Assembly: GCA_028286615.1 (NCBI GenBank)
Contig: JAQBRG010000003.1
Location: forward strand, 83,330-147,329
Length of the DNA stretch: 64,000 nt
Direction of reading: 5' to 3'
From: Parcubacteria group bacterium
GTDB taxonomy: Bacteria; Patescibacteriota; Minisyncoccia; Phycocordibacterales; Phycocordibacteraceae
This document shows, piece after piece, positions 18,989 to 64,000 of the stretch. Below the pieces are notes generated by a model. That model searched no databases and had not been told where the DNA came from. It saw only the letters and a list, made by a program, of their open reading frames with translations. Position numbers and translations under genes: made by a program. How positions within the stretch are numbered: position 1 is the first letter of the stretch; the number at the start of each line of letters is the position of its first letter.

Positions 18989-19121
18989 ACCCTAGCGGGA
19001 AGCCTGTATAAGAGCAAGGAATAAAGCCATGTTTGTTACTTGACAAAGTGTCAAGGTGTGCCTATAATAGTTCTCAGAGGGCACATGTTCTCGACAATTT
19101 TTTCCTAGAGGAGAGATCCAC

Positions 19122-19760
19122 GTGAGTGTTAAATCTTTTGGGGCTCTGGCCCTCGGTATCGTCGCTCTTGCGCTTGGCGCTTGCTCGACGACCCAGTACG
19201 CCGGCTACAGCAGGGATCCCCTGGCTGTGACGGCGATCTTCCAGAACGAAGACTGCGACCAAAGCGGCTGCGAATTCGGCTCCAACAAGAACCCGAAACG
19301 TCTGATCCCTGCTGAGGCCGCCGCCGGCATCACCCACTATGGGATGACGTGCGCCCAGGACACCGCCAAGCAAGTTGCCGGCCCAGTCCAAGCGACCGTC
19401 GACGGTATCGTTCCGAACGCGGCCGCAAGCGGCTTCGGCCTGCGCACCGGCATTCCCTACGTGAAGGGAAATCCTGCAAAATACGGCGCCTATGGGGCCG
19501 TGGTCGGAGCGTTCGGTGGCGCCAACTCTGGCGCCACCACCGGGGCGTTCTCCTCGGCCACCACGCGAGGCAAATGCGTCGACGACAAGTTCGCCGACGC
19601 CGGAGCCAAGGCCTTCCCTGGCACGCACACGGCAACCGTGACGGCCGGCAAGAAGATCGGCGCCAAGCTCGAACTCGACGAGACGCCGGTCCTGGACGCC
19701 TACTACAAGGAAAAAAACAGCACGCCCGATTCGGCCAAGAAGCCGCAAGAAGGCAGCTAA
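19122..19760 (+). CDS. Lipoprotein (signal peptide plus lipobox LGAC), about 63% GC, likely horizontally acquired; GTG start
   Basis: GGAGAG Shine-Dalgarno site then GTG; MSVKSFGALALGIVALALGAC; Gly/Ala-rich; GC far above the local background; strong terminator follows. Confidence 0.6.
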   Translation: MSVKSFGALALGIVALALGACSTTQYAGYSRDPLAVTAIFQNEDCDQSGCEFGSNKNPKRLIPAEAAAGITHYGMTCAQDTAKQVAGPVQATVDGIVPNAAASGFGLRTGIPYVKGNPAKYGAYGAVVGAFGGANSGATTGAFSSATTRGKCVDDKFADAGAKAFPGTHTATVTAGKKIGAKLELDETPVLDAYYKEKNSTPDSAKKPQEGS

Positions 19761-19782
19761 ACACCTACGGGTGCAAAGCGAA

Positions 19783-19823
19783 GACCCGGGTGTCATCACT
19801 GACACTCCGGGCCTTCTTTTTAT
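19783..19823 (+). terminator. Rho-independent terminator
   Basis: CCCGGGTGTCA-TCAC-TGACACTCCGGG followed by CCTTCTTTTTAT. Confidence 0.6.
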
Positions 19824-19829
19824 ACTTCT

Positions 19830-20351
19830 CTACTGAATACCTACGAGTTCAACGTCAAATATAAGCGTTGCGTTGGCGGGAATACCAGCTTCAGGATATC
19901 CATTAGGTCCGTATGCGAGATCGCCAGGGACGATGAGTTGGCGTTTGCCTCCTACTTTCATACCTACGATTCCTGCATCCCATCCCTTAATTACGCGTCC
20001 AACACCAATGGGGAAACTTGCAGCTCCTCCGTGTTTAGCTGACGCATCGAAGACCGTTCCGTCAGGAAGCATGCCTACGTAATTTACGGATACAGTGTCA
20101 CCTGCTTTAACTTCTGCACCAGTACCAACAACTTCATCAGTTATGGTTAGTTCAGTTGGTAGTGGCTGAGAAGGATCGTATTGCATAGCGGTTGAAGTTG
20201 CGTTAGTGCTTGAAGCGGTTATGTCCACCACTCCTGACTCTGCAGGAGTTGGCGAACTAAACGGTGTAAATACTGCTGGCCCAAAGAATAGAAATGCGAC
20301 TGCTATGACTAATGCGATAGCGACTGCGATTCCGGTACCCGTGACATTCAT
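19830..20351 (-). CDS. FKBP-type peptidyl-prolyl cis-trans isomerase with an N-terminal TM anchor
   Basis: C-terminal FKBP fold ...GWDAGIVGMKVGGKRQLIVPGDLAYGPNG...LIFDVELVGIQ. Confidence 0.8.
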   Translation of the reverse strand: MNVTGTGIAVAIALVIAVAFLFFGPAVFTPFSSPTPAESGVVDITASSTNATSTAMQYDPSQPLPTELTITDEVVGTGAEVKAGDTVSVNYVGMLPDGTVFDASAKHGGAASFPIGVGRVIKGWDAGIVGMKVGGKRQLIVPGDLAYGPNGYPEAGIPANATLIFDVELVGIQ

Positions 20352-20399: not shown

Positions 20400-22622
20400 C
20401 TACTTGACTTGCTTAGTAAACAAATCTACTTTTGGTCTTCCGCTAAAGGTACTAATCTCCCTCAGCTTGGTATCAGGATTGTATACCTGCCCCTCTGTAA
20501 CGTAATACGAGACTCCATTTTCCTCCATCGTATTCTCAGATAGCGTATATACACCTATACCTGGGTTATCGAAGGAGTAGGTTTGTGCAAACAGGCTTCG
20601 CTCCTTATAAGTACCTCCATGCACAAACAAGTTGCCCTTGGTATCGCTATATACATGCGGCTCGTTAGGATTTACTTCAATTCCCTGCGCGTTACGAACT
20701 GTCTCTGAGCTTGCTTCAGGCTGCGCTTTTTCTTCAGTTACCGTGGCAGAGACAGCAGCTGGAGCAGCCTCTGGCTTGGCTTCTGTTACTTTTGCTTTCT
20801 GCTCAAGAGGAGGCTTATTTTTTATAAAGGCTTCATATGCTTTGGATTTGTACCCGACATCTCTTACCATCTTCTCTTGAGTCTGGTTGTACTGTTCACG
20901 TTCAAAACCTGGAGGTATTTCCTTAGTTGAGTGCCATATGTTGAAGGAGTTTGCAGGGTCTGGTGTTACATCCATCTTCGCTGACATCTTGTATTTCTTT
21001 GGTGCAGTTTTAACTTCTTTCTTTGCGGCTTCCTTGTTAACAACAACCTTTGGAGGAGCTTCTGCACTACTCTTTGCTACAGGAGCTTTAATGCCCGCAC
21101 TCGCAGCTGATTTAGCTGCTGCGGGCTTTGTTGTTTGCTTCTGTATTTCTTTCGTGTGGTCGTTTCCGGGGTGTGACAAACCAAAGAAAGCAGCCAAGCC
21201 AGCTATGCCTGCTGCGCCCAGACCAATGAGGCCAGCTTTTTTCTTGGAGTTCTTTTTCGCTTCTGAGGGCGGTTTCGTTCCTTTAGCATTCTGCTTTTCT
21301 AAGAACTTCTCATACTGCTTTAGCGACATGCCGTGAGACGCTGCGAGGAGGTGAGGATTAGTATCTCCACTTACTGGAGCTGGTGTACGGCCGGCTTTGG
21401 CGTCTCTTTTTGCCATAGCTTTTTCATATGCCTTAACATTTTTATATCCCATAGCAGCTGCCATAAGGTATGGATTGTGTGGCATTGGCTTCTCCTCTAG
21501 AACTGGCTCAGGTTCGACACCTGCAGCTGGTGTTTCTGTCTCAGCGAGTGCTTCTGGGGTACTTGCTGGAGCAGGTGCGGCGTCAATCTTTGTAAAGCCA
21601 CCCTCATTCACAGATCTGTAATCTACAGGCGAAGAGTTCAAAGGACTTACGCCTGGGAACTGTTGCGGGTAGTTGGGATCTTGCTGCACTGGAGAAGAAA
21701 GGCTGGCCTGTTGAAGCAATTCTGCAAGCTTTTTCTTGGCTTCATCTCTGCTATCAAACATCTTTGGCTGCGGGAGTTGCTCTCCAAGTGCTTTGTCCAT
21801 GGCCTGTTGGTACGCTTCGAACTGTCCAGGCAAGAATTCAGGGACTGTAAGAGATTCAGCTACAGGCTCAGCGTCTACAGCGAGTACTTCAGGTTCCGCT
21901 GGCTCAACTTCAACAGGCTGGTTCTCTGTGACAACTTCAGCAGGTGCTTCTGCCTTTTTTGCTTCTGCAACTTTTTGTGCTGCTTCTAAAACCTCAGGGA
22001 TTATCTTCTGATCAAACTCGTCAGAAAGAGCATCGTATTCGTCATTTATTTTTTCTATGATTCGTTTACTTGGCTCTTTTTCCATTTGAGTTACAAGGGA
22101 TGTGATCCTTTTATAGGCATCGTATGCTTTTCCCCACTCTACTGGCACATCATGTACTTGAATTCCCATCGCACGCACGTCCTCGCCTAGCCACATAAAT
22201 CTATCCTTGGCTATTTTACGAGCTCTATCATATTCGTTTTCTTCCGCTGCTTCAGCGTTCTTAGAATCTTGTGGTTGCTCAGCAGATTCTATCTTTCCTT
22301 CAGCTGCTGCAGATATTACCTGCACATCCTGAGATGCTTTATCTTCTTCGACTTTAGCAGCAGGTCCCCCCTCTACCTTATCAACAGCAAAGTCTTCATA
22401 CGCAGATTCGTATTTTTTCTGTAGCTCTGCTTTCTTTTTAGAATCTGTAGAGCCTTCATAGGCGTTTAGAGCATCAATTGCAGCATAGTATTTAGCTGCC
22501 GGCACACCTGCTTTCGTACGCTTTACATTCAAGCTAGCAAGAATGCCTCTCTCTTTATCAACATCCAGTGTCTTTTTTATTCCTGAATCAATCGGTGGGT
22601 TTGGAGGGCTATTAAGTGACAT
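20400..22622 (-). CDS. Large low-complexity (A/E/K/P-rich) membrane-anchored protein of 740 aa, with one central TM helix and a globular C-terminal domain
   Basis: Compositional bias, TM LIGLGAAGIAGLAAFFGL. Sits immediately downstream of the VirB4-like ATPase gene. Confidence 0.55.
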   Translation of the reverse strand: MSLNSPPNPPIDSGIKKTLDVDKERGILASLNVKRTKAGVPAAKYYAAIDALNAYEGSTDSKKKAELQKKYESAYEDFAVDKVEGGPAAKVEEDKASQDVQVISAAAEGKIESAEQPQDSKNAEAAEENEYDRARKIAKDRFMWLGEDVRAMGIQVHDVPVEWGKAYDAYKRITSLVTQMEKEPSKRIIEKINDEYDALSDEFDQKIIPEVLEAAQKVAEAKKAEAPAEVVTENQPVEVEPAEPEVLAVDAEPVAESLTVPEFLPGQFEAYQQAMDKALGEQLPQPKMFDSRDEAKKKLAELLQQASLSSPVQQDPNYPQQFPGVSPLNSSPVDYRSVNEGGFTKIDAAPAPASTPEALAETETPAAGVEPEPVLEEKPMPHNPYLMAAAMGYKNVKAYEKAMAKRDAKAGRTPAPVSGDTNPHLLAASHGMSLKQYEKFLEKQNAKGTKPPSEAKKNSKKKAGLIGLGAAGIAGLAAFFGLSHPGNDHTKEIQKQTTKPAAAKSAASAGIKAPVAKSSAEAPPKVVVNKEAAKKEVKTAPKKYKMSAKMDVTPDPANSFNIWHSTKEIPPGFEREQYNQTQEKMVRDVGYKSKAYEAFIKNKPPLEQKAKVTEAKPEAAPAAVSATVTEEKAQPEASSETVRNAQGIEVNPNEPHVYSDTKGNLFVHGGTYKERSLFAQTYSFDNPGIGVYTLSENTMEENGVSYYVTEGQVYNPDTKLREISTFSGRPKVDLFTKQVK

Positions 22623-22632
22623 AGATAAATAG

Positions 22633-25386
22633 TTAAGAAAGGTATCGAGCTCTAATGGTTGCTTCTATAGTGGAACGGTCTCGCCCGTAGGTCAAGTAGG
22701 AAAGCTGCCTAAGATCGTCTACCTGCGCCAAGTTCCCTTCGCTAAGTGGGAGTGTTTGCATATTGAACGGCTTCTGCGGTATGCCATGAGCAAGAAGACG
22801 GATATATGCGTTTCTGTTTTCAAGGTTTGTAAAGTCCGAAGAGGTAAATGCAGGTGCAAAAAGTTTCTCAAAGAATTCTCCGTCTTCCTGTCCAACGCGG
22901 AACGCTGCCATTGATCCAACGTTTCCGAACACCGCATCACGTATCTTCTGGTCAACCTGCGCCAGGAACTGGTGCGCAAGGGTTAGAGAGAGTTTGTACT
23001 TGCGAGCTTCTGAAAGAATACCTGGGATAGAGTCCGTAGTTATGTTCTGGAACTCGTCTATGTAGAGGTAGAACGGTGGGAAGTCTCCACGTGGATTGTC
23101 TGCACGAGATAGTGCAGCCATAAACAACTTTCCAACAAGAATAAGACCGAGCAGGTTGGCGTTTCGTTCTCCCAGTCTTCCCTTTGAAAGATTAACGAGA
23201 AGAATCTTCTTGTTGTCTATAACTTCACGGAACTTAAAGGAAGATTCCTGCTGGCCAATAATAGGACGCATGAAGTCGTTTGCCGTGAACTCGTCGAACT
23301 TGTTCGTGATATACGGCACAATGTTCTGAAGCGATGCCTCGCCTTCAGCTTTTGTAGCAATTTCCTGCCAGAACTGGTTAACGATTGGGTTGTTGCTCTT
23401 AGAAAGTTTGAGATTTCTAAACTCTGCGTTTGAAAGTACGCGTCCAATATCCATGAGTGTAGACCCTGATGCCGGATCTTCCATAACCAGCTGTGTTGCG
23501 TTACGGAAGTACTGTTCGAAGGCAGGTCCCATACTCTCGGGCACATCTCCATACAACTGCCTGAATATCATAAGCATCTCGTTCACAATGAAAGATTTCT
23601 GCTCGGGCTTAGACGGATCGTACTCAAGCATGTTGAGACCGAACGGACGGTCTAGGTATGCTGGATCAAAGTAGATAACGTCTTCGTATCGCTCCGGAGG
23701 AACGCTCGCTAGCACGTCGAGAATATCGTTGCCGTGCGGATCTATGAAGCAGACACCGTTTCCGGCTTTAATATCCTGTTCAATCATAGTCTTAAGGAAT
23801 CCAGTCTTTCCGGCTCCCGTCTGTCCAATAACATAGAGATGGCGAAGACGGTCCTCAGGTGCGAGGAATACGTCTGTAAGTGTTCCGCGGAAGTTGTTCG
23901 TACCCAGCTTCATACCTTCCTTCGGCATTTCCATAGGAGCGGCAGCTGCTGCCGTACGCGATTGTTTCAAGTGTGGCGAAGACTCAATACCCTTTGGAGG
24001 GAAGTGGTACATCGTGGTGAGTTCGCGAAGAGAAAGCGGAAGGAGAGACCCTTGTGAGAAGAGACGGAAAGAGAAGTTGCGGAAGAAGCGCTTGATATCT
24101 CCTCGCTTAGGTTCGACGAAAGCGAGTCTGTTGCCTGTTGTATTTTCAAACTGGTTAAAGGAAGATGCCAGTTCTTCAATTATTTGATGTGCACGCGAAG
24201 GATCTTGTGAGGACACGGCAAGACGAATATTTGCGGCAACAATCGGAGCAGCAATCTTCTTCTCAAGCATTTCAATACCCTTCTCATCTATTGGGCCTTT
24301 ATTCTCAGGCTTCTTAGAGTTGTTAGCGAAGATATTAAACGCTTCACGAGCCAAGTCTCCTACGAATGTTTCAGGGAGCGAGAAAGCTTCAGAACGAGTC
24401 TTTCCTTCGCGAAGTGCATGCAGCACTTTTCTATAATGTTCTACGTAATGGTTGCCAACAGGCTTGAAGATTATCTGAAGCGCAGCTCCCTCGCCCTCCG
24501 GAGCAATCTTCGCAAATGCATTTAAAAGAGAGTTGAGAGGATCGTAGTCAAAGTCTTGGTAGTCCTTAAGCGGCAACATGCCTACATCCTTAAACTTTCC
24601 AACAACTCCCACAGACGTACCTCCGTCCATGAAGATGTTGTAGTCGTTTGGTTGAGCGGTTATGTGTGCTCCCGGGAATATAGCGAGCAATTGCTTTTCA
24701 AAAAGGTCTTTGCGGGAGTTAGGGACCGCTGCGTAGAACATAAGGTGTGGATGGTCTACCGGTACCGCAAGCTCAAGCGTGAAGTATGGCGGCTCGCTTT
24801 TATGTGCTTCTCCAACTGAAAGCATGCCTGAGTAGAACTGTTCCATTGCGGACACCAGTTCCTTCAATGTCTTTTCTCTTCCTTCCTGAGTACTTGCAAC
24901 TTCAGGTAGCGCAATCTCGTAGAGGGTCATGTGCAGCGCCTTCCATTCAGGCTGTCCCTCCTTAATGCCTTGAATTGGCATTCCCTTTAAAACGTACTGC
25001 ACGAGGAAGCGATGGAAGTCGTCTTCAAGGTGCGGATTAGCTAGCTTTTCAAGTACCGCAAACGCATTTGCTACACCCTTCGTCTCCATAATGTTGCGAA
25101 GTTCTTCTATAGTTTCGTCGTCTGCCTTTGGATCAAGGTTTAGGGCAAGCTCATGCGCGGCTTCTGCAGGCATGCGGTATCCAGGAGCAAAATGTTCTTC
25201 TGCCGCATTCTCGCGATGATGCGTTATGCGTTCGTGCGCAACTTCAGCGCGCGGCATAACCGTGTTGAGCGCAGCAAGCTCTGCTTCTTTCGCAGCTACT
25301 TGCTCACGCAGATATGCAATCTCATCTTCAGGCGATGCGATCGGCCGTGTGGGTCCCTCCATTATGTAGAAGTATACGTTATTCAA
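22633..25386 (-). CDS. VirB4/TrbE-like (DUF87 / AAA_10-type) type IV secretion ATPase of 917 aa
   Basis: C-terminal-half P-loop HLYVIGQTGAGKTGFL...CFIDPHGND; Walker B FYLYIDEFQNI; KYKLSLTLAHQFLAQV resembles the VirB4/VirD4 family. A VirD4-like coupling protein cannot be excluded. Confidence 0.55.
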   Translation of the reverse strand: MNNVYFYIMEGPTRPIASPEDEIAYLREQVAAKEAELAALNTVMPRAEVAHERITHHRENAAEEHFAPGYRMPAEAAHELALNLDPKADDETIEELRNIMETKGVANAFAVLEKLANPHLEDDFHRFLVQYVLKGMPIQGIKEGQPEWKALHMTLYEIALPEVASTQEGREKTLKELVSAMEQFYSGMLSVGEAHKSEPPYFTLELAVPVDHPHLMFYAAVPNSRKDLFEKQLLAIFPGAHITAQPNDYNIFMDGGTSVGVVGKFKDVGMLPLKDYQDFDYDPLNSLLNAFAKIAPEGEGAALQIIFKPVGNHYVEHYRKVLHALREGKTRSEAFSLPETFVGDLAREAFNIFANNSKKPENKGPIDEKGIEMLEKKIAAPIVAANIRLAVSSQDPSRAHQIIEELASSFNQFENTTGNRLAFVEPKRGDIKRFFRNFSFRLFSQGSLLPLSLRELTTMYHFPPKGIESSPHLKQSRTAAAAAPMEMPKEGMKLGTNNFRGTLTDVFLAPEDRLRHLYVIGQTGAGKTGFLKTMIEQDIKAGNGVCFIDPHGNDILDVLASVPPERYEDVIYFDPAYLDRPFGLNMLEYDPSKPEQKSFIVNEMLMIFRQLYGDVPESMGPAFEQYFRNATQLVMEDPASGSTLMDIGRVLSNAEFRNLKLSKSNNPIVNQFWQEIATKAEGEASLQNIVPYITNKFDEFTANDFMRPIIGQQESSFKFREVIDNKKILLVNLSKGRLGERNANLLGLILVGKLFMAALSRADNPRGDFPPFYLYIDEFQNITTDSIPGILSEARKYKLSLTLAHQFLAQVDQKIRDAVFGNVGSMAAFRVGQEDGEFFEKLFAPAFTSSDFTNLENRNAYIRLLAHGIPQKPFNMQTLPLSEGNLAQVDDLRQLSYLTYGRDRSTIEATIRARYLS

Positions 25387-49949: not shown

Positions 49950-50996
49950 TTATTCTTCTGCGCCTTTTACTATGTCCTTCCGTTTCAGATACGCCTTCCC
50001 TTCAAAACGGAGATCTACATATTCAACCGAACCGTCGTTTAGGTTAAGTGTTGGGAATGCTGAGGCTGCAAGAGATCCTGCCACATCTTCCCTTCCTCCT
50101 ACGTACGTTATACGTGTCCCTCCAACCGTATACAGATCTATCTCGTCGTCTCTGAATGCAACTGAGGTAACGTTCGCATTTAATGATTTAACTAACTTAA
50201 CGAAACGAAGAATGTCAGGGAGTTCTGTTGCTTTAGACACTCTCGCTCCAAGCGGATACTGGAGTCCTTCGTTCGTAGCTTCGGCTGTAGCGTAGACCAT
50301 AAGATCTGCCGGACCCGCGGTATCAACGGGCGCAAAGATCAGACCTTCAGTATCTGCCTGCCAACACGGCTCCACTTTCGTATCAAAGGAGGTGCCGCAC
50401 CACACAAACGCACGGGTGCGAGATACGGTTTCGATAACAAGCGTATTCAACCCATCTGCAGAGGTTGAGACCGTCTGTATAGCTGGTATCTCTCGCACAA
50501 TACTCTCTCGTATGTCGGTTTCAGGAAGAAGGAAAATAGAATTGCGTGGAAGTATATACAAGTATGAACCGTACGTTTGTACGCGGGCAATTGATGCAGC
50601 TTCGTCTCCATAAGCCCCTTCTCCGCGAACTTGTTGAATACGAAAAGCAGGAAGCCAGAGTGCGTAGAAAATACCTCCAATTACTAGAAGAGCGAGTACT
50701 ACAAGAAGTATGAGCCACACCTTTCGTCTCTTCTGGCGACGCTTCTTAAGAGGCTGAGCAGTTTCCTTCGTAGCGCGTTCGACTTTTGCAGAACCCTTTG
50801 GACGAGGCATGCGTGTATCGCTATACGCTTCTTTACGTACAGGAACTCGTGGAGCAGCTTTAGCTTTCTCAGGAGCGGCACGCCTTTTCATATCCATAGG
50901 ACCAGTACTCCGTGCTGACGAAGTTTGTGCAGGCTGTGGAGCAGCCTTTGGTTTCGGCCGATTAGGCGCTATGTCCCAGGATTTCTTTACCGACAT
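49950..50996 (-). CDS. FtsQ/DivIB-like cell-division protein (basic N-tail, TM, POTRA-like)
   Basis: Architecture only; low sequence certainty. Confidence 0.45.
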   Translation of the reverse strand: MSVKKSWDIAPNRPKPKAAPQPAQTSSARSTGPMDMKRRAAPEKAKAAPRVPVRKEAYSDTRMPRPKGSAKVERATKETAQPLKKRRQKRRKVWLILLVVLALLVIGGIFYALWLPAFRIQQVRGEGAYGDEAASIARVQTYGSYLYILPRNSIFLLPETDIRESIVREIPAIQTVSTSADGLNTLVIETVSRTRAFVWCGTSFDTKVEPCWQADTEGLIFAPVDTAGPADLMVYATAEATNEGLQYPLGARVSKATELPDILRFVKLVKSLNANVTSVAFRDDEIDLYTVGGTRITYVGGREDVAGSLAASAFPTLNLNDGSVEYVDLRFEGKAYLKRKDIVKGAEE

Positions 50997-57392: not shown

Positions 57393-58457
57393 TCAAACAA
57401 CGAAGTTTCGTATTGAATAGAGTTCGTCGTCTTCGGGCGTAGGCTGTACTTCTGCAACTGGAGCTGCAGGTGCTTCTACAGGAAGCTGTGTGGTATTCGG
57501 GTATTCCTCAACAAGACTTTCAGGAGGAGTCTCAATATTTGCCTCAGGAGCAAAGGCTTCTTCGCTTGCCATACGTGCCTCTTCGCGAGCAGCAAGAATG
57601 TCTGCAATGTGTGCCAGATCTTCTGGAGAGAAGAACTCGATAAGAACACGGCCTCCGTTGGGACGGTTCTCAATTAATACACGGGTACCAAGTGTTTCTG
57701 TAAGACTCTTCTCGAGTTCCATCATCTCAGGAGTCTTGTCATGCTTGCGAATCTTGTCTTGCGCTATACGTCGAGCAAGTTGTTCAACAACACGCACTGA
57801 AGTCTTCTTGAGAACAATTTCCTTAAAGAGAGTATCTCGTTCTAGAGGCCTATCTGTAAGCATGAGAAGAGCTCGCGCATGTCCCTCGGTTATTTCCTTA
57901 TCAACAACTGCCTGCTGAATTGACTCAGGGAGCATGAGGAGACGGATGGAGTTAGAGACGTACTCACGACTTCGTCCAACTTTAGCTCCAATCTCTGAGT
58001 GCGAGAGGCCGAATGCTTCCATAAGCTGCGCGAGTGCTTTGGCGCGATCTATAGCATTAAGATCTTCTCGCTGAAGGTTCTCGATTATAGCGAGCTCAAG
58101 CTTCATTTTGTCAGACTGCTCACCTGCACGAATAACAACCGGCACTTCCTTAAGACCAATAAGGCGAGAAGCACGAAGACGTCGCTCTCCTGCTATAAGC
58201 TCATAGACGCTTTGGAGACCACCGTCAGGCTTCTGTACATCTGTACGCGTAACAACGAGTGGCTGGAGCACACCGTACTGTCGAATAGATTCAGCGAGTG
58301 CTTTGAGACGCTCTTCGTCGAACTCGCGGCGAGGTTGGTACGGGTTTGGTTCAATACGGTTAACCTCAACCCAGAAAATAGAATCGTACCGCGTTGGTTC
58401 GTGGTAGTTGCTCATGCCCTTCGTTTCGCTCATTGAAGGTATTGTAGCATCGAGCAT
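57393..58457 (-). CDS. parB: ParB/Spo0J partition protein
   Basis: ParB box ...GERRLRASRLIGL..; HTH; 354 aa. Confidence 0.85.
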   Translation of the reverse strand: MLDATIPSMSETKGMSNYHEPTRYDSIFWVEVNRIEPNPYQPRREFDEERLKALAESIRQYGVLQPLVVTRTDVQKPDGGLQSVYELIAGERRLRASRLIGLKEVPVVIRAGEQSDKMKLELAIIENLQREDLNAIDRAKALAQLMEAFGLSHSEIGAKVGRSREYVSNSIRLLMLPESIQQAVVDKEITEGHARALLMLTDRPLERDTLFKEIVLKKTSVRVVEQLARRIAQDKIRKHDKTPEMMELEKSLTETLGTRVLIENRPNGGRVLIEFFSPEDLAHIADILAAREEARMASEEAFAPEANIETPPESLVEEYPNTTQLPVEAPAAPVAEVQPTPEDDELYSIRNFVV

Positions 58458-60419: not shown

Positions 60420-61265
60420 ATGTCCGACGACCCCTCCCCCAAACCTCACATAATTGCTGTTGTAGGCCCTACGGCTTCCGGCAAGTCAGCTCGAGCAATT
60501 CAGTTAGCACAGGAACGTAACGGCGAAGTTATATCCGTAGACTCTCGTCAGGTGTACCGCATGCTCGACATCGGTACCGAGAAAACAACCCCGGAAGAAA
60601 TGCAGGGTATTCCCCATTACCTCATAGACATACGCGACCCGAAAGAAACGTATGGAGCTGGAGACTTTGTAGAGGATGCTACAAAACTAATTGAAGACAT
60701 CACTGCTCGCGGAAAGACTCCCATACTCGCGGGCGGCACGCATTTCTATTTCGAAGCGCTCCTGTACGGACTTCCAGCTGAGATGCCCGCCAATCCAGAG
60801 CTCCGCAAGACATTAGAAGCTAGGAGTACTGAAGAACTAATGAGCGAGATACGTACGCGAGATCCACGACGCGCTGCTCGCATAGATCCTCAAAACAAGC
60901 GCCGCTTGGTTCGTGCGCTTGAGATTATTGAAACCAAAGGGTTCGTACCTGAGCGCGATACCCTAACACCTCTATACGATGTTGAATGGGTGATTATTAA
61001 TCCAGAACGAGACGAGCTTCGTTCACGTATACATACCCGTCTAGAACAGGCTCTTTCTCGAGGACTTATAGAAGAAGTGCGAAAGGTTAGAGAATACGTA
61101 GGAGACGACAGACTCAACGAGCTTGGTCTTGAGTATCGAATTGTTGGAGAATTCCTCCGGGGAGAACGCTCTGAAGAATCATTACTACCTTCCCTCTCCT
61201 CACGTGTATGGCATTACGCACGGCATCAGAAGGCGTGGCTTCGCAAACTCGGACAGACTACTTAG
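60420..61265 (+). CDS. miaA: tRNA dimethylallyltransferase
   Basis: P-loop VGPTASGKS...; ...DSRQVYR.LDIGT.K... motifs. Confidence 0.85.
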   Translation: MSDDPSPKPHIIAVVGPTASGKSARAIQLAQERNGEVISVDSRQVYRMLDIGTEKTTPEEMQGIPHYLIDIRDPKETYGAGDFVEDATKLIEDITARGKTPILAGGTHFYFEALLYGLPAEMPANPELRKTLEARSTEELMSEIRTRDPRRAARIDPQNKRRLVRALEIIETKGFVPERDTLTPLYDVEWVIINPERDELRSRIHTRLEQALSRGLIEEVRKVREYVGDDRLNELGLEYRIVGEFLRGERSEESLLPSLSSRVWHYARHQKAWLRKLGQTT

Positions 61266-62206
61266 TTACAGCCACAGGAAGCACCAATACTTACATGGAG
61301 ATGGGTTCCTTCGAATCCCGTGTATGTTGCGCCACATGCTTTTGCTGCAGCTGCTAGAACATTGCTATTCTGGTCATCACCAAAGTCTGCTGCGTAAGAA
61401 CTTCCCACACAGGTCTTTCCTCCATAGTGACAAGAGTTAGCGGTATGGGCGCAACCTGCACCCTGTCCCCCTGCGGCGCACTGTGCAAAGGTCTTGGAAC
61501 CACTAACGATCTTACTATCTGATATTGATGAAATCTGTCCTACGTTTGCGGGTACACGGTTTGCTATACATGAAAGAAGTGCATTGAGTTTTGCTGATGC
61601 CTGGCCCTTTTGAGCTTCAATACCTTTTTGGTAGGTAAACACGCCGTCTGCGCCAGCTGCAGGTGCTGTAGTTGGTGTTGGTGTTGTCGGAGTGCCGCCG
61701 CTAGCAGGATTTGCTACGGGATTTAATGTTGGGTTTTGGAAGTTTCCTGCGAGTCCTCCACTAAAGAGTGCTGTATTTGTGGATGCTTTCACGCACGCGT
61801 CTCCACCCGTGAGGATACTGTTCCAGGGACCAAACTCTGCACTCGTTCCATCCTCTCCTACGTACAGTTTCTTCATAACGAAATCAACAACAAGCCATGC
61901 AGACAAGAAGACAAGGAGTCCAACCATTGTATTCATAAGAATCTTGTTCGCCTTTCCCCTGCTTTCAGGATTCGCACCAGATGTCATGTAAAGCGCACCT
62001 GCCCACACCAACATAAGTGTTGCTATAACTCCTATGATCCCCATGAAGAAGTTAATCAGGTTTTGCAGCAATTTAAGAACACTTCCCATGCCTAGAGGTG
62101 CTCCGTCTGCACAAACAGGCACCAGCCCTGTTGCTTCCTGCGCATACGCAAGTACAGGTAGCGTAAAGAGTGCAAGTAAAGCAAGAGTAATTAGAAATCG
62201 TCTCAT
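61262..62206 (-). CDS. Secreted protein with a TrbC/VirB2-pilin-like N-terminal domain fused to a zinc D-Ala-D-Ala-carboxypeptidase (M15)-like domain
   Basis: Signal peptide; 2-TM pilin-like block ...MGIIGVIATLMLVWAGALYMTSG...LLVFLSAWLVVDFV; C-terminal SCHYGG...AADFG and THLHVS (H...D...HxH zinc triad). Confidence 0.55.
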   Translation of the reverse strand: MRRFLITLALLALFTLPVLAYAQEATGLVPVCADGAPLGMGSVLKLLQNLINFFMGIIGVIATLMLVWAGALYMTSGANPESRGKANKILMNTMVGLLVFLSAWLVVDFVMKKLYVGEDGTSAEFGPWNSILTGGDACVKASTNTALFSGGLAGNFQNPTLNPVANPASGGTPTTPTPTTAPAAGADGVFTYQKGIEAQKGQASAKLNALLSCIANRVPANVGQISSISDSKIVSGSKTFAQCAAGGQGAGCAHTANSCHYGGKTCVGSSYAADFGDDQNSNVLAAAAKACGATYTGFEGTHLHVSIGASCGCN

Positions 62207-62210
62207 GGGG

Positions 62211-62753
62211 TTATGGAAGATTTACGCTTCCTTCGCAGAACGAGAGTCCTAAGTTGTCATACTCCGAATACAATTCGTTCACATCTGCCTGCACCACAAC
62301 CGAGGTATTAAGCGCACACAATTGCGCATCAGTTAGCTTAAGTAGAGTACGCATGTAAGTTTCAGCATCGCTTCTAGCGTCACGAAGCGGCTCTGAGATT
62401 AGTGTTATGAGAAATTCTGAATCGTTCTCTCCGTACTGCACTGAGAAGGTAAATCCTTGTGTGCTGTATTCAGGACCATACAACTGGTAGTAGACCCCAT
62501 TGGGAGTTTGAAGAGGTTCTTTAGACTCGGTGAAGTCAGGCACAGAAACAACTTGCCCTGAACGGTCGTGAATCGCCTTCTGCTTTGTTGTCCCGCCCGT
62601 ACCTGATGTAACCAAGCCGCCAAAAGGATCGTTGTTTGTAACAACTGGAGCTACGGACTCCTTCTTGAAGAGGGTTATGCCTACCCATATCAAAATACCT
62701 ATAGCAAGGACGACGAGCACTACTGCAGCGAGAATAATTAGGTGACGCTTCAT
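62211..62753 (-). CDS. Hypothetical secreted or anchored protein (start at the internal MKRHLIILAAVV)
   Basis: N-terminal TM then soluble domain; the track ORF extends to 62840. Confidence 0.4.
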   Translation of the reverse strand: MKRHLIILAAVVLVVLAIGILIWVGITLFKKESVAPVVTNNDPFGGLVTSGTGGTTKQKAIHDRSGQVVSVPDFTESKEPLQTPNGVYYQLYGPEYSTQGFTFSVQYGENDSEFLITLISEPLRDARSDAETYMRTLLKLTDAQLCALNTSVVVQADVNELYSEYDNLGLSFCEGSVNLP

Positions 62754-63811
62754 AGGAATGATGATACCGCACCCATAAGTCGGGATCGTAGGTTTTCCGA
62801 AGCAAGTCCGCAATCTTTCGCCGTAGACCATTCCCTCCATCCTGTTCGTTTATACGTAGCGACGGCCTCAGCAATGTTCTTTTCTGCATCTTTAGCTGCA
62901 GAGACGCATTGTGCATACAGTGCTTCGTTCTTCACACGAGCTGTATAGTTCTTACCTGAAAATGCTGCAGGGCAATTCAATCCCGCAACCTCGTGATAGG
63001 TAAGATTTATTTGAAAGAGTCCAAATGAGAAGGCTCGCTTCTGGGGGTCGTTACGCATGTAATCTGACGTGCTGACATTTATAATATTGCCTTTGCTTTC
63101 TTTGTAACAAATTTGCGAGGCTTGATTTGCTGCTGTACCGAAGTATGGAGCAAGCGCGGATGCTGAGCAGTTACCGGTATTCTTAACCGTACACGATCCT
63201 CCGGCACTTGAACTGCTCGTGGTACTTCCTCCCCTTGGTTTGGCTCCTCCGCCTGTTACAGCAATGCCTCCCTGTCCTGGTGCGCTGACTCCATTGTAAA
63301 GCGGTTGATTTGTACTTGCCACGATACAGTAGTCTCCTCCTGTAAGAACGGCGTTCCATGGACCAAAGGTTTTGCTCTCTCCGTCCTGTCCTACATAGAG
63401 CGTAGTCATAACGAAGTCCACGATAAGCCACGCAGCGAGCACTATGATGAATCCAATAATTGCATTTGAGATCATGCTCTTGGCCTTGCTCTTGTTCTCA
63501 GGATTTGTTGGCGAGAGCATGAGAATTGCTCCTGCATAGGCAATGGTGAGCGTAATAACAAGGAGCCCTACGGACACACTTGCGTTCATGAGGTTCTGGA
63601 CGAGTTGTAAGAAGCCAGCGAATCCAAGTGGCGCGTTTGCAAGACAGTCTGGATCCAGAGCATTAGCATCCGGCACAATCTGGAAGTCTGGGTTAAGTAT
63701 GGGGAGATTTAAATCTGCTGCATGTGCAGACACAGGAAGTGTGGCTACGAAAGCCACAAGTAGTAAAAGAAGGAGCGCCCGAAACCGGTACATGGCTGTA
63801 TTGTAACGCAC
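62750..63811 (-). CDS. Secreted protein with a TrbC/VirB2-pilin-like N-terminal domain fused to a lysozyme-like (SLT lytic transglycosylase) domain
   Basis: Signal peptide; pilin-like 2-TM block ...VSVGLLVITLTIAYAGAILMLSP...IIGFIIVLAAWLIVDFV; C-terminal YKESKGN...SFGLFQIN (E-S...GLxQ motif). Confidence 0.55.
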   Translation of the reverse strand: MRYNTAMYRFRALLLLLLVAFVATLPVSAHAADLNLPILNPDFQIVPDANALDPDCLANAPLGFAGFLQLVQNLMNASVSVGLLVITLTIAYAGAILMLSPTNPENKSKAKSMISNAIIGFIIVLAAWLIVDFVMTTLYVGQDGESKTFGPWNAVLTGGDYCIVASTNQPLYNGVSAPGQGGIAVTGGGAKPRGGSTTSSSSAGGSCTVKNTGNCSASALAPYFGTAANQASQICYKESKGNIINVSTSDYMRNDPQKRAFSFGLFQINLTYHEVAGLNCPAAFSGKNYTARVKNEALYAQCVSAAKDAEKNIAEAVATYKRTGWREWSTAKDCGLASENLRSRLMGAVSSFL

Positions 63812-63871
63812 CTAGTTAGTCTATATACGCTCTTTGCCCACACTCTAAGGTTCTGTTATCGTAGCGCTATA

Positions 63872-63942
63872 GGGCCTGTAGTTAAATGGTATAACTTCGG
63901 ATTCCAAACCCGACGTCCTAGGTTCGATTCCTAGTGGGCCCG
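63872..63942 (+). tRNA. tRNA-Trp (anticodon CCA)
   Basis: GGGCCTG-TA-GTTA-AATGGTA-TAAC...loop TTCCAAA...CTAGG-TTCGATT-CCTAG-TGGGCCC-G. Confidence 0.8.
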
Positions 63943-64000
63943 CATCTACATAAAGCAGAAGGCGCTGGAATTTCCAACGCCTTAAGCACTACGCCACAGA

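What the first reader, a model, noticed from the sequence alone, without database searches (positions are those of the whole stretch)
61262..63811. Two paralogous VirB2/TrbC-pilin-like proteins fused to peptidoglycan hydrolase domains (M15 peptidase-like; SLT lysozyme-like)
Both ORFs begin with a signal peptide plus a two-helix hydrophobic block typical of conjugative pilins. They continue into a Gly/Thr/Pro linker and a C-terminal catalytic-looking domain: SxHxxG...D...HxH in one, and E-S...GLFQIN in the other. A pilin-anchored cell-wall hydrolase could serve to breach a host or neighbour cell wall, or to insert a secretion machine through the organism's own wall.
Basis: partly seen in the sequence, partly recalled or inferred. 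Interest (0 to 1): 0.55.

Follow-up and report, generated by a model that had tools for sequence, protein, structure and literature searches.

The report
Pilin-tethered cell-wall-cutting enzyme operon
A tiny uncultured (Patescibacteria) bacterium encodes two secretion-pilus subunit look-alikes that each carry a different cell-wall-cutting enzyme on a flexible tether, plus a conserved partner protein, which may explain how these cell-surface parasites open bacterial walls for their type IV secretion apparatus.

Summary
Three co-directional, tightly packed minus-strand genes form one cassette.

- **C (62750-63793):** signal peptide, VirB2-type pilin hairpin, disordered linker, then a lysozyme-like domain.
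- **B (62211-62753):**
- **A (61262-62206):** the same pilin module (46% identical to C's), a linker, then a zinc-peptidase-like domain.

A's enzyme domain hits no Pfam model. Its family has at least 499 clusters at 50% identity, and the putative metal-site residues are invariant. The AlphaFold model (pLDDT 95.6) matches Hedgehog N-domains and phage murein endopeptidases.

C's enzyme domain keeps the catalytic Glu-Ser and GLFQIN motifs. Its profile hits only C-type lysozymes in the PDB.

In metagenomes, 37 of 37 complete lysozyme-like genes carry the pilin module. B follows directly in 20 of 35 loci, and another pilin gene comes next wherever sequence continues. Other pilins in such arrays carry VanY peptidase domains.

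Southlakia's essential T4SS locus encodes the same enzyme pair unfused, next to VirB4.

Most likely these are tethered wall hydrolases serving the Patescibacterial T4SS or pilus. Housekeeping autolysis is the main rival. I found no paper describing the fusion.

The parts
62750..63793 (-). Gene C: pilin-module + lysozyme-like fusion protein (347 aa; first gene of the cassette)
   Evidence: ORF. ATG start at 63793. The same gene call appears on an identical Logan contig.
63719..63793 (-). C signal peptide, residues 1-25, ending AHA|AD
   Evidence: Hydropathy and helix 2-25 in the AF2 model. The cleavage site is inferred from the Ala-x-Ala rule.
63398..63622 (-). C VirB2-type pilin hairpin (helices 58-93 and 98-132). 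A Lys-rich loop (NPENKSKAKS) joins them, and Cys50/Cys156 flank the hairpin.
   Evidence: PF18895 at 44.9 bits, above the 26.6 cut-off. AF2 pLDDT 84-93. Cysteine positions.
63203..63358 (-). C flexible Gly/Ser/Thr/Pro linker (residues 146-197)
   Evidence: pLDDT below 50. Composition.
62804..63202 (-). C lysozyme-like catalytic domain (residues 198-330). Catalytic Glu232-Ser233 lie at 63095-63100, and SFGLFQIN at 63005-63028.
   Evidence: SLT_3 PF18896 at 16.7-19.3 bits, below the cut-off of 27, but it hits 4 of 4 homologues. The profile hits only C-type lysozymes in the PDB, best E 0.0028. Invariant residues.
62211..62753 (-). Gene B: single-pass membrane-anchored protein (180 aa) with a ~140-residue outside domain. 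It has 2 invariant Cys, invariant Arg127 and Glu131, and a GLSFCPGxVxLP-type C-terminus. Fold unknown.
   Evidence: ORF and ATGA overlap with C's stop codon. Alignment A8. No Pfam, NCBIfam, PHROG or PDB hit. It lies directly downstream of the lysozyme-like gene in all 8 first-set loci that hold a B homologue (window and L001 are one locus), one of them unfused (divergent lysozyme-like motifs read), and in 20 of 35 metagenome loci.
61262..62206 (-). Gene A: pilin-module + Hedgehog/DD-peptidase-fold fusion protein (314 aa; last gene). Its 3' end overlaps the stop of the convergent miaA.
62141..62206 (-). A signal peptide, residues 1-22, ending AYA|QE
   Evidence: Hydropathy. Ala at -1 is conserved in 85% of 130 family N-termini.
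61877..62074 (-). A VirB2-type pilin hairpin (Pfam match residues 45-110). The loop is NPESRGKANK, and Cys32/Cys138 flank the hairpin.
   Evidence: PF18895 at 53.4 bits and PF04956 at 29.6 bits, both above cut-off. NCBIfam Mbov_0395 pilin-like at 33.2 bits, below its cut-off of 40. The Cys pair is conserved in 63% and 81% of 130 representatives.
61655..61756 (-). A flexible Gly/Thr/Pro/Asn/Ala linker (residues 151-184)
   Evidence: Composition. In the family, the median distance from helix 2 to the enzyme domain is 60 residues.
61265..61654 (-). A zinc-peptidase-like domain (residues 185-314). The putative metal-site block H254, H260, D274, E299 and H302-x-H304 lies at 61295-61447. The domain contains eight Cys.
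   Evidence: 499 family representatives. Residue conservation. PDB profile hits only Hedgehog N-domains. AF2 pLDDT 95.6. Foldseek results.

Best explanation
The window comes from a Paceibacteria/Parcubacteria-type Patescibacterium. The three genes form one operon of exported envelope proteins.

**Topology (inferred).**
- A and C are made with a cleavable signal peptide.
- A VirB2-like helical hairpin then sits in the membrane, with its positively charged loop facing the cytoplasm.
- Both ends of the hairpin lie outside and are probably stapled by a conserved cysteine pair.
- A disordered 35-50-residue linker holds an enzyme head outside the cell.

**Enzymes (inferred from fold and conserved residues).**
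- C carries a lysozyme-like glycan-strand cleaver. It has a single catalytic Glu and no Asp partner, so its chemistry is probably like a lytic transglycosylase or goose-type lysozyme.
- A carries a zinc metallopeptidase of the Hedgehog/DD-peptidase (LAS, M15-like) fold, which would cut peptide stems or cross-links.
- Together they would cleave both bond types of peptidoglycan.

**B (inferred).** B is anchored outside by one helix and is genetically locked to the lysozyme-like gene. It most likely regulates or inhibits that enzyme.

**Role (inferred).** I think the cassette supplies the wall-opening, VirB1-equivalent function of the Patescibacterial type IV secretion or pilus apparatus. The heads would act either from the membrane pilin pool or as minor subunits built into the pilus. 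The target would be the cell's own wall and possibly the host's wall.

**What is shown:** domain architecture, residue conservation, export signals and gene linkage.
**What is inferred:** enzymatic activity, topology, B's role, incorporation into a pilus, and the target wall.

**On the confidence figure.** It applies to the whole statement, including the T4SS/pilus role. I would put the narrower claim, that these are exported pilin-anchored peptidoglycan hydrolases, at about 0.8.
For: **Architecture**
- Pilin module.
- Peptidase-like domain.
- Lysozyme-like domain.

**Extracytoplasmic location**
- Signal peptides and a Lys/Arg-rich loop between the helices.
- 8 and 6 cysteines in the two enzyme heads, plus a conserved Cys pair flanking the hairpin.

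**Operon structure**
- ATGA overlap between C and B, and a 4-nt gap between B and A.

**Conserved module**
- The order C-B-A, or a permutation, occurs in L010, L017, L011, L008 and L007.
- It also occurs in metagenome loci L026, L027, L037, L042 and L063.
- 37 of 37 5'-complete lysozyme-like genes carry the pilin module.
- B lies directly downstream in 20 of 35 loci. Another pilin gene followed B in all 16 loci where sequence continued. These include arrays of short pilins in L034 and L039.
- Other pilins in such arrays carry VanY D-Ala-D-Ala carboxypeptidase domains above the Pfam cut-off.

**Link to T4SS**
[quoted passage not shown] - In Southlakia epibionticum, the essential T4SS locus encodes a lysozyme-like protein (SEML1_0006) and a protein with a C-terminal Hedgehog/DD-peptidase domain (SEML1_0007).
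- Both lie directly downstream of VirB4 and both are essential (PMC10633639 tables).
- The window itself encodes a T4SS-type ATPase at 22633-25386.
Against: - No T4SS gene lies next to the cassette. The only T4SS-type ATPase in the window is 36 kb away.
- None was found within 8 kb in the 10 syntenic species-representative loci.
- In those loci the pilin-peptidase gene sits in a stable housekeeping neighbourhood: miaA, peroxiredoxin, parB, relA/spoT and topA.
- No canonical M15 or SLT Pfam model reaches its cut-off on the window proteins.
- The His-Asp spacing is non-canonical (H-x13-D).
- hhalign finds no relation between the peptidase-like domain and the pilin-fused VanY domains.
- The fold of the lysozyme-like head could not be confirmed. 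Foldseek on the full-length model returned only helical-hairpin noise.
- A mature subunit of about 290-320 residues is far larger than any known VirB2 pilin. It is unknown whether such a subunit can enter a pilus.
- No enzymatic or localisation data exist.
Confidence: 0.5

Rival explanations
1. Housekeeping autolysins. The pilin-like hairpin has been co-opted purely as a membrane anchor. The two enzymes remodel the organism's own wall during growth and division, and B acts as their regulator. There is no connection to a T4SS or pilus.
For: - The locus is conserved in a core-genome neighbourhood: miaA, Prx, parB, relA and topA in 10 species-representative loci.
- No VirB4-like gene lies within 8 kb.
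- Only two pilin genes occur in 64 kb.
- A membrane tether with a linker suits controlled action on the cell's own wall.
- Many loci have the pilin-peptidase gene alone.
Against: - The anchor is specifically a VirB2-type module that passes Pfam cut-offs.
- In metagenomes the same fused genes sit at the head of arrays of short, ordinary-size pilins.
- The same enzyme pair lies within the essential T4SS locus of Southlakia.
- 37 of 37 lysozyme-like genes use this anchor and no simpler one.
Confidence: 0.28
2. Anti-host or anti-competitor weapon with immunity. The enzyme heads are delivered to the wall of the host or a neighbouring cell, for example displayed on a pilus. There they breach the wall for attachment or nutrient uptake. 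B is the immunity protein that protects the producer's own wall from the lysozyme-like head.
For: - B lies directly downstream of the lysozyme-like gene in every first-set locus that holds a B homologue (8 distinct loci, one of them without a recognisable pilin module) and in 20 of 35 metagenome loci.
- This holds even where the lysozyme-like protein has no recognisable pilin module (L004/L005).
- B is anchored on the outside and has a conserved Cys pair.
- This layout is typical of effector-immunity pairs (my own knowledge).
- Patescibacteria are obligate epibionts whose T4SS is essential for growth on the host (PMC10633639).
Against: - B has no detectable similarity to any known inhibitor or immunity family.
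- The more divergent lysozyme-like pilins lack B (15 of 35 loci).
- The peptidase-fused pilin has no dedicated partner.
- The locus shows none of the polymorphism or mobility expected of toxin cassettes. Its synteny is stable.
Confidence: 0.2
3. Non-catalytic binding heads. The two C-terminal domains are degenerate enzyme folds used as peptidoglycan- or glycan-binding adhesins on a pilin scaffold. Animal Hedgehog and alpha-lactalbumin are comparable non-hydrolytic relatives.
For: - The closest solved relatives of the peptidase-like head are Hedgehog ligands, not enzymes.
- The second catalytic Asp of C-type lysozyme is replaced by Ser.
- The His-Asp spacing is atypical.
Against: - The putative metal and catalytic residues H254, H260, D274, H302 and H304 are 99-100% conserved, and E299 is 85% conserved, over 151 representatives.
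- The catalytic Glu-Ser of the lysozyme-like head is invariant.
- Lytic transglycosylases and goose-type lysozymes work without the second Asp (my own knowledge).
- Phage wall hydrolases are among the best fold matches.
Confidence: 0.07

Closest known systems
VirB2/TrbC-type T4SS pilins, especially the tandem 'VirB2 arrays' of Patescibacteria (PF18895/PF04956; Quinonero-Coronel 2025, PMC12102498; Wang 2023, PMC10633639)
   Same: - Signal peptide, two hydrophobic helices and a short basic loop.
- Pfam hits above cut-off.
[quoted passage not shown]
- In metagenomes the fused genes head arrays of short pilins.
   Different: - The mature proteins are about 290-320 residues, not about 70-130.
- They carry a linker and an enzyme domain at the C-terminus.
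- The window locus is not next to virB4.
- A Cys pair flanks the hairpin.
T4SS-associated wall hydrolases: VirB1, PrgK (pCF10), TraG (pIP501), and SEML1_0006/SEML1_0007 of Southlakia epibionticum
   Same: - A glycan-cleaving lysozyme/SLT-type activity is combined with a peptidase activity.
- In Southlakia the pair is lysozyme-like plus Hedgehog/DD-peptidase, encoded directly downstream of VirB4, and both are essential.
   Different: - Here the two activities sit on two separate small proteins, each fused to a pilin module.
- In the known examples they are soluble or single-anchor multidomain proteins.
- The peptidase partner in PrgK and TraG is CHAP/NlpC-type, not LAS-type.
Hedgehog N-terminal domain and bacterial Hh/DD-peptidases (M15A-like; Roelink 2018, PMC6027127)
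   Same: - Best sequence-profile and fold matches.
- H254, H260, D274 and H302-x-H304 align with Shh H135, H141, D148 and H181-x-H183.
[quoted passage not shown]
   Different: - Only 12-20% identity.
- A 7-residue insert gives H-x13-D instead of H-x6-D.
- The conserved Glu (E299) aligns one position away from Shh E177.
- The domain has eight cysteines.
- Bacterial Hh proteins were described as more than 50% identical to Shh and rare, about a dozen species. This family is remote from Shh and large, with at least 499 clusters.
Lysozyme-like superfamily: Pfam SLT_3 (PF18896), C-type lysozyme (GH22) and lytic transglycosylases (GH23)
   Same: - Catalytic Glu-Ser at the end of a helix.
- G-[LIM]-[FW]-Q-I-N strand motif and a W-x-x-W-S C-terminal motif.
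- The profile hits only C-type lysozymes in the PDB.
- SLT_3 hits all close homologues.
   Different: - The window protein scores below the SLT_3 cut-off.
- The Asp52/53 nucleophile of C-type lysozyme is Ser.
- Structure-based confirmation is missing.
Pilin-VanY fusions found here in related arrays (L042, L043)
   Same: The same pilin module carries a peptidoglycan peptidase of the M15 clan, with PF02557 above its cut-off.
   Different: There is no detectable profile similarity between VanY and the peptidase-like head of A beyond the A-V-D motif.

Membership tests
VirB2/TrbC T4SS pilin | Family HMM match above the curated cut-off | tested here: met
   PF18895 scores 53.4 bits (A) and 44.9 bits (C) against a cut-off of 26.6. 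PF04956 scores 29.6 bits against 27.9 for A, but only 12.7 bits for C.
VirB2/TrbC T4SS pilin | Signal peptide followed by two hydrophobic helices joined by a short basic loop | tested here: met
   Hydropathy. AF2 hairpin at pLDDT 84-93. Loop sequences NPESRGKANK and NPENKSKAKS.
VirB2/TrbC T4SS pilin | Small mature subunit, roughly 70-130 residues, without extra domains | tested here: not met
   The mature proteins are about 292 and 322 residues, each with a linker and an enzyme head.
VirB2/TrbC T4SS pilin | Encoded within a T4SS gene cluster (virB4, virB3, virB6 neighbours) | tested here: not met
   The nearest T4SS-type ATPase is 36 kb away. None was found within 8 kb in the 10 syntenic loci.
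VirB2/TrbC T4SS pilin | Polymerises into a T4SS-dependent pilus | not testable with these tools
   Requires pilus purification or cryo-ET.
LAS / Hedgehog-DD-peptidase fold (MEROPS M15-like) | Hedgehog/DD-peptidase fold | tested here: met
   The AF2 model has pLDDT 95.6. The top 33 PDB matches are all Hedgehog N-domains, probability up to 1.0 and TM 0.5-0.56, though E is only 0.017 or weaker. Phage wall hydrolases and murein endopeptidase match at probability 1.0.
LAS / Hedgehog-DD-peptidase fold (MEROPS M15-like) | H-x(6)-D zinc-ligand motif | tested here: not met
   The spacing is H260-x13-D274 because of a 7-residue insert. Both residues are 100% conserved and align with Shh H141 and D148.
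LAS / Hedgehog-DD-peptidase fold (MEROPS M15-like) | H-x-H motif | tested here: met
   H302 is 99% and H304 100% conserved. They align with Shh H181 and H183.
LAS / Hedgehog-DD-peptidase fold (MEROPS M15-like) | Catalytic Glu (Shh E177 / VanX E181 equivalent) | tested here: inconclusive
   E299 is 85% conserved, but in the HMM alignment it sits one column away from Shh E177.
LAS / Hedgehog-DD-peptidase fold (MEROPS M15-like) | Match to a curated M15 or HH_signal family model | tested here: not met
   No Pfam, NCBIfam or PHROG hit on the domain, including 41 members scanned at E up to 10. hhalign against pilin-fused VanY domains gives probability 0.7%.
LAS / Hedgehog-DD-peptidase fold (MEROPS M15-like) | Zinc binding and peptidoglycan peptidase activity | not testable with these tools
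   Requires biochemistry.
Lysozyme-like superfamily (SLT_3 / GH22 / GH23) | Family HMM match above the curated cut-off | tested here: inconclusive
   SLT_3 scores 16.7-19.3 bits against a cut-off of 27 in the window protein. All 4 close homologues hit it, best E 7e-8. The L008 orthologue scores 25 bits.
Lysozyme-like superfamily (SLT_3 / GH22 / GH23) | Catalytic Glu (E-S motif) conserved | tested here: met
   E232-S233 are invariant in 9 of 9 homologues and align with E35 of C-type lysozyme.
Lysozyme-like superfamily (SLT_3 / GH22 / GH23) | Second catalytic Asp of C-type lysozymes (D52/D53) | tested here: not met
   The aligned position is Ser256. This argues against GH22-type chemistry but is compatible with lytic transglycosylase or goose-type chemistry.
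Lysozyme-like superfamily (SLT_3 / GH22 / GH23) | Lysozyme fold | tested here: inconclusive
   The domain is modelled at pLDDT of about 58-91, with a helix ending at E232 followed by a beta region and helices.
Effector-immunity pair (for B) | A small exported protein encoded directly downstream of the hydrolase that binds and inhibits it | tested here: inconclusive
   Adjacency is strong: every first-set locus holding a B homologue (8 distinct loci) and 20 of 35 metagenome loci. Binding and inhibition were not tested, and B resembles no known inhibitor.

The most novel reading that the evidence does not exclude
Patescibacteria build an 'armed' conjugative-type pilus. VirB2-like subunits carrying lysozyme-like, Hedgehog-fold or VanY peptidase heads on flexible tethers would be incorporated among ordinary short pilins. 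The filament itself would then digest both bond types of peptidoglycan, drill through the host bacterium's wall, and open the conduit on which the epibiont lives. B would keep the lysozyme head silent on the producer. On this reading VirB1 looks 'missing' from most Patescibacterial T4SSs because its function is fused to the pilin.
Probability: 0.15. Interest if true: 0.85.

Novelty: new variant of a known kind. Interest (0 to 1): 0.62.

Why it matters
**The open question.** Patescibacteria make up a large share of bacterial diversity and live attached to other bacteria. In the one tractable species, a T4SS with a pilin array is essential for growth on the host, and nobody knows what it does. 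Recent surveys note that most of these genomes have VirB2-like pilins but no VirB1 wall hydrolase (PMC12102498).

**What this adds.**
- A large, unannotated protein family places the wall-cutting activities directly on the pilin module. The peptidase-like head alone has at least 499 clusters at 50% identity, and every named source calls its members 'hypothetical protein'.
- The enzyme pair is the same as in the essential Southlakia T4SS locus.
- This gives a concrete, testable explanation for the 'missing VirB1'.

**Further consequences.**
- It offers a candidate mechanism for opening the epibiont's own wall or the host's wall.
- It identifies a new conserved partner protein, B.
- It defines a new bacterial branch of the Hedgehog/DD-peptidase fold that no Pfam model covers.
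- If the heads turn out to be ordinary autolysins on a borrowed anchor, the result still documents an unusual reuse of a pilin fold.

Tried and rejected
**Searches that returned nothing useful**
- Single-sequence PDB searches with either enzyme head gave no meaningful hit.
- A 4-sequence lysozyme-like profile against the PDB gave nothing. A broader 9-sequence profile was needed.
- Word-indexed homology searches with the single heads returned only 1 and 3 relatives. The exhaustive HMMER search was needed to reveal the family.
- tblastn of either head against phage genomes gave no match.
- PHROGs returned nothing useful.
- The promoter and terminator scan of 61000-64000 gave counts equal to shuffled controls.

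**Structure work that failed or was unavailable**
- Foldseek of the full-length C model returned only non-significant helical-hairpin matches, so it did not test the lysozyme fold.

**Hypotheses tested and dropped**
- The peptidase-like head is not detectably related to the Pfam-validated VanY domains fused to neighbouring pilins (probability 0.7%). I therefore do not file it as M15B/VanY.
- I suspected a '3D domain' in the L019 protein by eye, but Pfam gave no hit, so I dropped the idea.
- I considered a mobile-element or conjugative-plasmid origin. I rejected it because the flanks are housekeeping genes with conserved synteny in 10 genomes.

**Other**
- Literature searches for PF18896, or for pilin-hydrolase fusions in Patescibacteria, found no description.

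Full report
**1. What is in the sequence**

The interval 61262-63811 holds three co-directional minus-strand ORFs, not two.
- Gene C is listed from a GTG at 63811. The ATG at 63793 gives 347 aa and is the start called on an identical public contig.
- Gene B (62211-62753, 180 aa) starts with an ATG that overlaps C's stop codon (CTATGA).
- Gene A (61262-62206, 314 aa) starts 4 nt after B's stop. Its 3' end overlaps the stop of the convergent miaA.
- This packing indicates one operon. A consensus promoter and terminator scan added nothing beyond shuffled controls.
- A tRNA-Trp gene lies divergently upstream.

**2. The shared N-terminal module**

- A and C are 46% identical over 134 residues (E=7e-42) and unrelated after that.
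- Both pass the Pfam T4SS_pilin cut-off. A also passes TrbC/VirB2.
- Both give a sub-threshold hit to the Mycoplasma ICE pilin-like family Mbov_0395.
- Hydropathy shows a signal peptide and two transmembrane helices.
- The AlphaFold model of C places helices at 58-93 and 98-132 with pLDDT 84-93. A segment with pLDDT below 50 follows, at residues 146-198.
- The inter-helix loops are basic (NPESRGKANK and NPENKSKAKS). The linkers are 78-83% Gly, Thr, Pro, Ser, Ala or Asn.
- A cysteine before helix 1 and another after helix 2 (A: C32 and C138; C: C50 and C156) are conserved in 63% and 81% of 130 family N-termini.

From these signals I infer a topology. The signal peptide is cleaved, the loop faces the cytoplasm, and both hairpin ends lie outside and are possibly disulfide-stapled. 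The enzyme head is then extracytoplasmic. The 8 and 6 cysteines in the two heads fit an outside location.

**3. The head of A**

- No Pfam, NCBIfam or PHROG model hits it, even when 41 members are scanned at E up to 10.
- The word-indexed search found a single relative.
- The exhaustive profile search found 499 representatives at 50% identity with E up to 1e-3, and 296 with E up to 1e-10. The domain is almost always at the C-terminus.
- 130 of the 150 best representatives also contain an A-like pilin region.
- Across 151 sequences, C213, C252, H260, G262, D274, C291 and H304 are 100% conserved. H254, S258, Y261 and H302 are 99% conserved, and E299 is 85% conserved. A Ser-Ile-Ser-Asp motif at 227-230 is 93-97% conserved.
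- Named sources are Falkowbacteria, Komeilibacteria, Moranbacteria, Pacebacteria and Minisyncoccia. All entries are 'hypothetical protein'.
- A profile against all PDB sequences returns only Hedgehog N-terminal domains. The E-values are weak (0.1-0.9), but the alignment puts H254, H260, D274 and H302-x-H304 on Shh H135, H141, D148 and H181-x-H183. A 7-residue insert lies between the His and the Asp.
- The domain model built from a 41-sequence alignment has pLDDT 95.6.
- Its top 33 Foldseek matches in the PDB are all Hedgehog N-domains (probability up to 1.0, TM 0.5-0.56, about 130 columns, E 0.017 or weaker).
- Among viral models, the best matches are a phage 'cell wall hydrolyse', an LT_GEWL protein, 'murein endopeptidase K', endolysins and M15A peptidases.

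The sequence and structure searches therefore converge on the Hedgehog/DD-peptidase (LAS) fold, whose bacterial members cut peptidoglycan peptides (PMC6027127).

Two caveats apply.
- The canonical H-x6-D is H-x13-D here.
- E299 aligns one column away from Shh E177.

I could not inspect model coordinates. hhalign found no relation to pilin-fused VanY domains. I therefore place the head at fold level, not in any curated M15 family.

**4. The head of C**

- SLT_3 (PF18896) scores below its cut-off in the window protein (16.7-19.3 bits against 27).
- It hits all four close homologues, best E 7e-8.
- A 9-sequence profile of this head hits 165 PDB sequences. All of the best 60 listed are C-type lysozymes, the best being an insect lysozyme at E=0.0028 and human lysozyme at about 0.03.
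- In those alignments E232 sits on catalytic E35, SFGLFQIN sits on (D)YGIFQIN, and GWREWST sits on the lysozyme W-x-x-W region.
- The Asp52/53 position is Ser. I therefore infer single-carboxylate chemistry of the lytic-transglycosylase or goose type. This last step rests on general knowledge of these families.
- E, S, G, Q and I of the two motifs are invariant in 9 homologues.
- In the full-length model, the helix at 211-233 ends at the Glu and is followed by a beta region and helices. This layout is lysozyme-like.
- The whole-chain Foldseek search was swamped by hairpin matches and did not test the fold.

**5. Gene B and the wider module**

- B has one N-terminal transmembrane helix and an outside domain of about 140 residues.
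- Arg127, Glu131, Cys146 and Cys173 are invariant, and the C-terminus follows a GLSFCPGxVxLP pattern.
- B has no Pfam, NCBIfam, PHROG or PDB relative.
- The species-representative scan returned 17 genome loci. I analysed them together with five earlier contigs and the window.
  - The order lysozyme-pilin, B, peptidase-pilin recurs in L010, L017 and L011.
  - The permuted order peptidase-pilin, lysozyme-pilin, B occurs in L008 and L007.
  - B was always directly downstream of the lysozyme-like gene.
  - This held even in L004/L005, where that gene lacks a recognisable pilin module.
- A metagenome scan seeded on the lysozyme head gave 47 distinct loci.
  - 37 of 37 5'-complete genes carry the pilin module.
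  - B is directly downstream in 20 of 35 loci with room for it.
  - The gene after B was another pilin in all 16 loci where sequence continued.
  - That pilin was fused to the peptidase-like head, fused to another head, or the first of an array of short pilins (L034, L039).
- Two neighbouring pilins carry VanY D-Ala-D-Ala carboxypeptidase domains above the Pfam cut-off (L042 at 49 bits, L043 at 26.3 bits).

The VirB2-like module is thus a general carrier of wall-hydrolase heads in this phylum. The fused genes are members of the 'VirB2 arrays' already reported (PMC12102498).

**6. Genomic setting**

- The window is a chromosome segment with housekeeping genes: miaA, peroxiredoxin, parB, relA/spoT, topA, serS, uvrABC, tgt and lysS.
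- The order pilin-peptidase, miaA, (Prx), parB, relA, topA is conserved in 10 GTDB species representatives labelled Paceibacterota or Parcubacteria, and in one further metagenome contig, L002.
- The closest is L010, with 72-84% amino-acid identity in housekeeping proteins.
- No VirB4-like gene lies within 8 kb in those loci.
- The window's only T4SS-type ATPase is at 22633-25386 (DUF87 above cut-off, weak TraD/VirD4/VirB4 hits), 36 kb away.
- Only two pilin genes occur in the 64 kb.

**7. Interpretation**

*Shown.*
- There are two paralogous VirB2-type modules, each joined by a disordered linker to a conserved head.
- One head is of the Hedgehog/DD-peptidase fold and one is lysozyme-like. Both keep their catalytic-type residues.
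- Export signals are present, the three genes are tightly packed as an operon, and the lysozyme head is linked to B.

*Inferred.*
- The two heads cleave peptide and glycan bonds of peptidoglycan outside the membrane.
- B modulates the lysozyme head.

*Role.* I favour a T4SS or pilus-associated wall-opening function for four reasons.
- The anchor is specifically a pilin module.
- The fused genes head arrays of ordinary pilins.
- Surveys report that most Patescibacterial genomes with VirB2 lack VirB1.
- In Southlakia epibionticum, a lysozyme-like protein (SEML1_0006) and a protein with a C-terminal ECOD Hedgehog/DD-peptidase domain (SEML1_0007, matched to Shh chain 6n7g_C) lie directly downstream of VirB4. 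Both are essential.

*Main rival.* The heads could be housekeeping autolysins on a borrowed anchor. The stable core-genome location away from any T4SS gene supports this. An anti-host weapon with B as immunity is a variant of the favoured reading. Non-catalytic adhesin heads are unlikely given the residue conservation.

**8. Novelty**

- The components are known kinds: VirB2 pilin, LAS peptidase fold, lysozyme-like fold and T4SS-associated hydrolases.
- Pfam's adjacent accessions PF18895 and PF18896 suggest, to me, that the pilin-lysozyme architecture was seen by curators. This is my inference and not a tool result.
- I found no paper that describes pilin-hydrolase fusions, the Hedgehog-fold family, or protein B.
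- I therefore rate it a new variant of a known kind. It is of moderate-to-good interest because it bears directly on an explicit open question about the Patescibacterial T4SS.

Noticed in passing
window 22633-25386 (-) and 20400-22622 (-): A 917-aa T4SS-type ATPase, with DUF87 above its cut-off and weak TraG-D_C, TraD, VirD4 and VirB4 hits. A 740-aa low-complexity protein with one transmembrane segment and no family hit follows it. This is probably the genome's VirB4-like gene, and no other T4SS parts were recognised nearby.
   Followed up: partly
window 13685-17314 (-): UvrB interrupted by an intein. It has an intein splicing domain, a LAGLIDADG_3 endonuclease and an HTH domain.
   Followed up: no
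window 19074-19864: A local GC peak (0.538 against about 0.48) with three long overlapping ORFs on both strands. The + strand ORF 19122-19760 begins with a lipoprotein-like signal (LALGAC).
   Followed up: no
L009 5580-8384: The open frame upstream of the pilin-peptidase gene runs through a recombinase-like sequence and what looks like a translated tRNA gene. This replaces the position where relatives carry the lysozyme-pilin and B. It may be an integrative element inserted at the tRNA.
   Followed up: no
L042 4980-5906; L043 799-2097: Pilin modules fused to bona fide VanY (PF02557) D-Ala-D-Ala carboxypeptidase domains, next to lysozyme-pilin genes.
   Followed up: partly
L018 5381-6319; L019 4930-5916; L020 8384-9337; L047 502-1461; L057 852-2003: Pilin modules fused to Cys-rich C-terminal domains of about 150-200 residues with no family hit. 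L024 3998-4978 carries a divergent S-x-H-x-x-G...D head.
   Followed up: partly
L020 8384-10586; L034 1095-2447; L039 2891-4282: Arrays of three to four short pilin genes (103-217 aa) immediately follow the fused pilin or B genes.
   Followed up: partly
window A residues 32/138 and C residues 50/156 (about 62109-62111, 61791-61793, 63644-63646, 63326-63328): A conserved cysteine pair brackets the pilin hairpin, in 63% and 81% of 130 relatives. It may staple the two ends in place of the head-to-tail cyclisation known for some VirB2/TrbC pilins, leaving the C-terminus free to carry a domain. The comparison with cyclisation is from my own knowledge.
   Followed up: partly
window 57393-58457 (-): parB lies 3 kb from the cassette, and this neighbourhood is conserved in 10 species-representative genomes and the L002 metagenome contig. 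The published observation that Patescibacterial T4SS genes tend to lie near the replication origin may be relevant.
   Followed up: no
window 49950-50996 (-): A 348-aa protein whose only hit is a weak, sub-threshold SNARE-domain match, probably a coiled coil.
   Followed up: no
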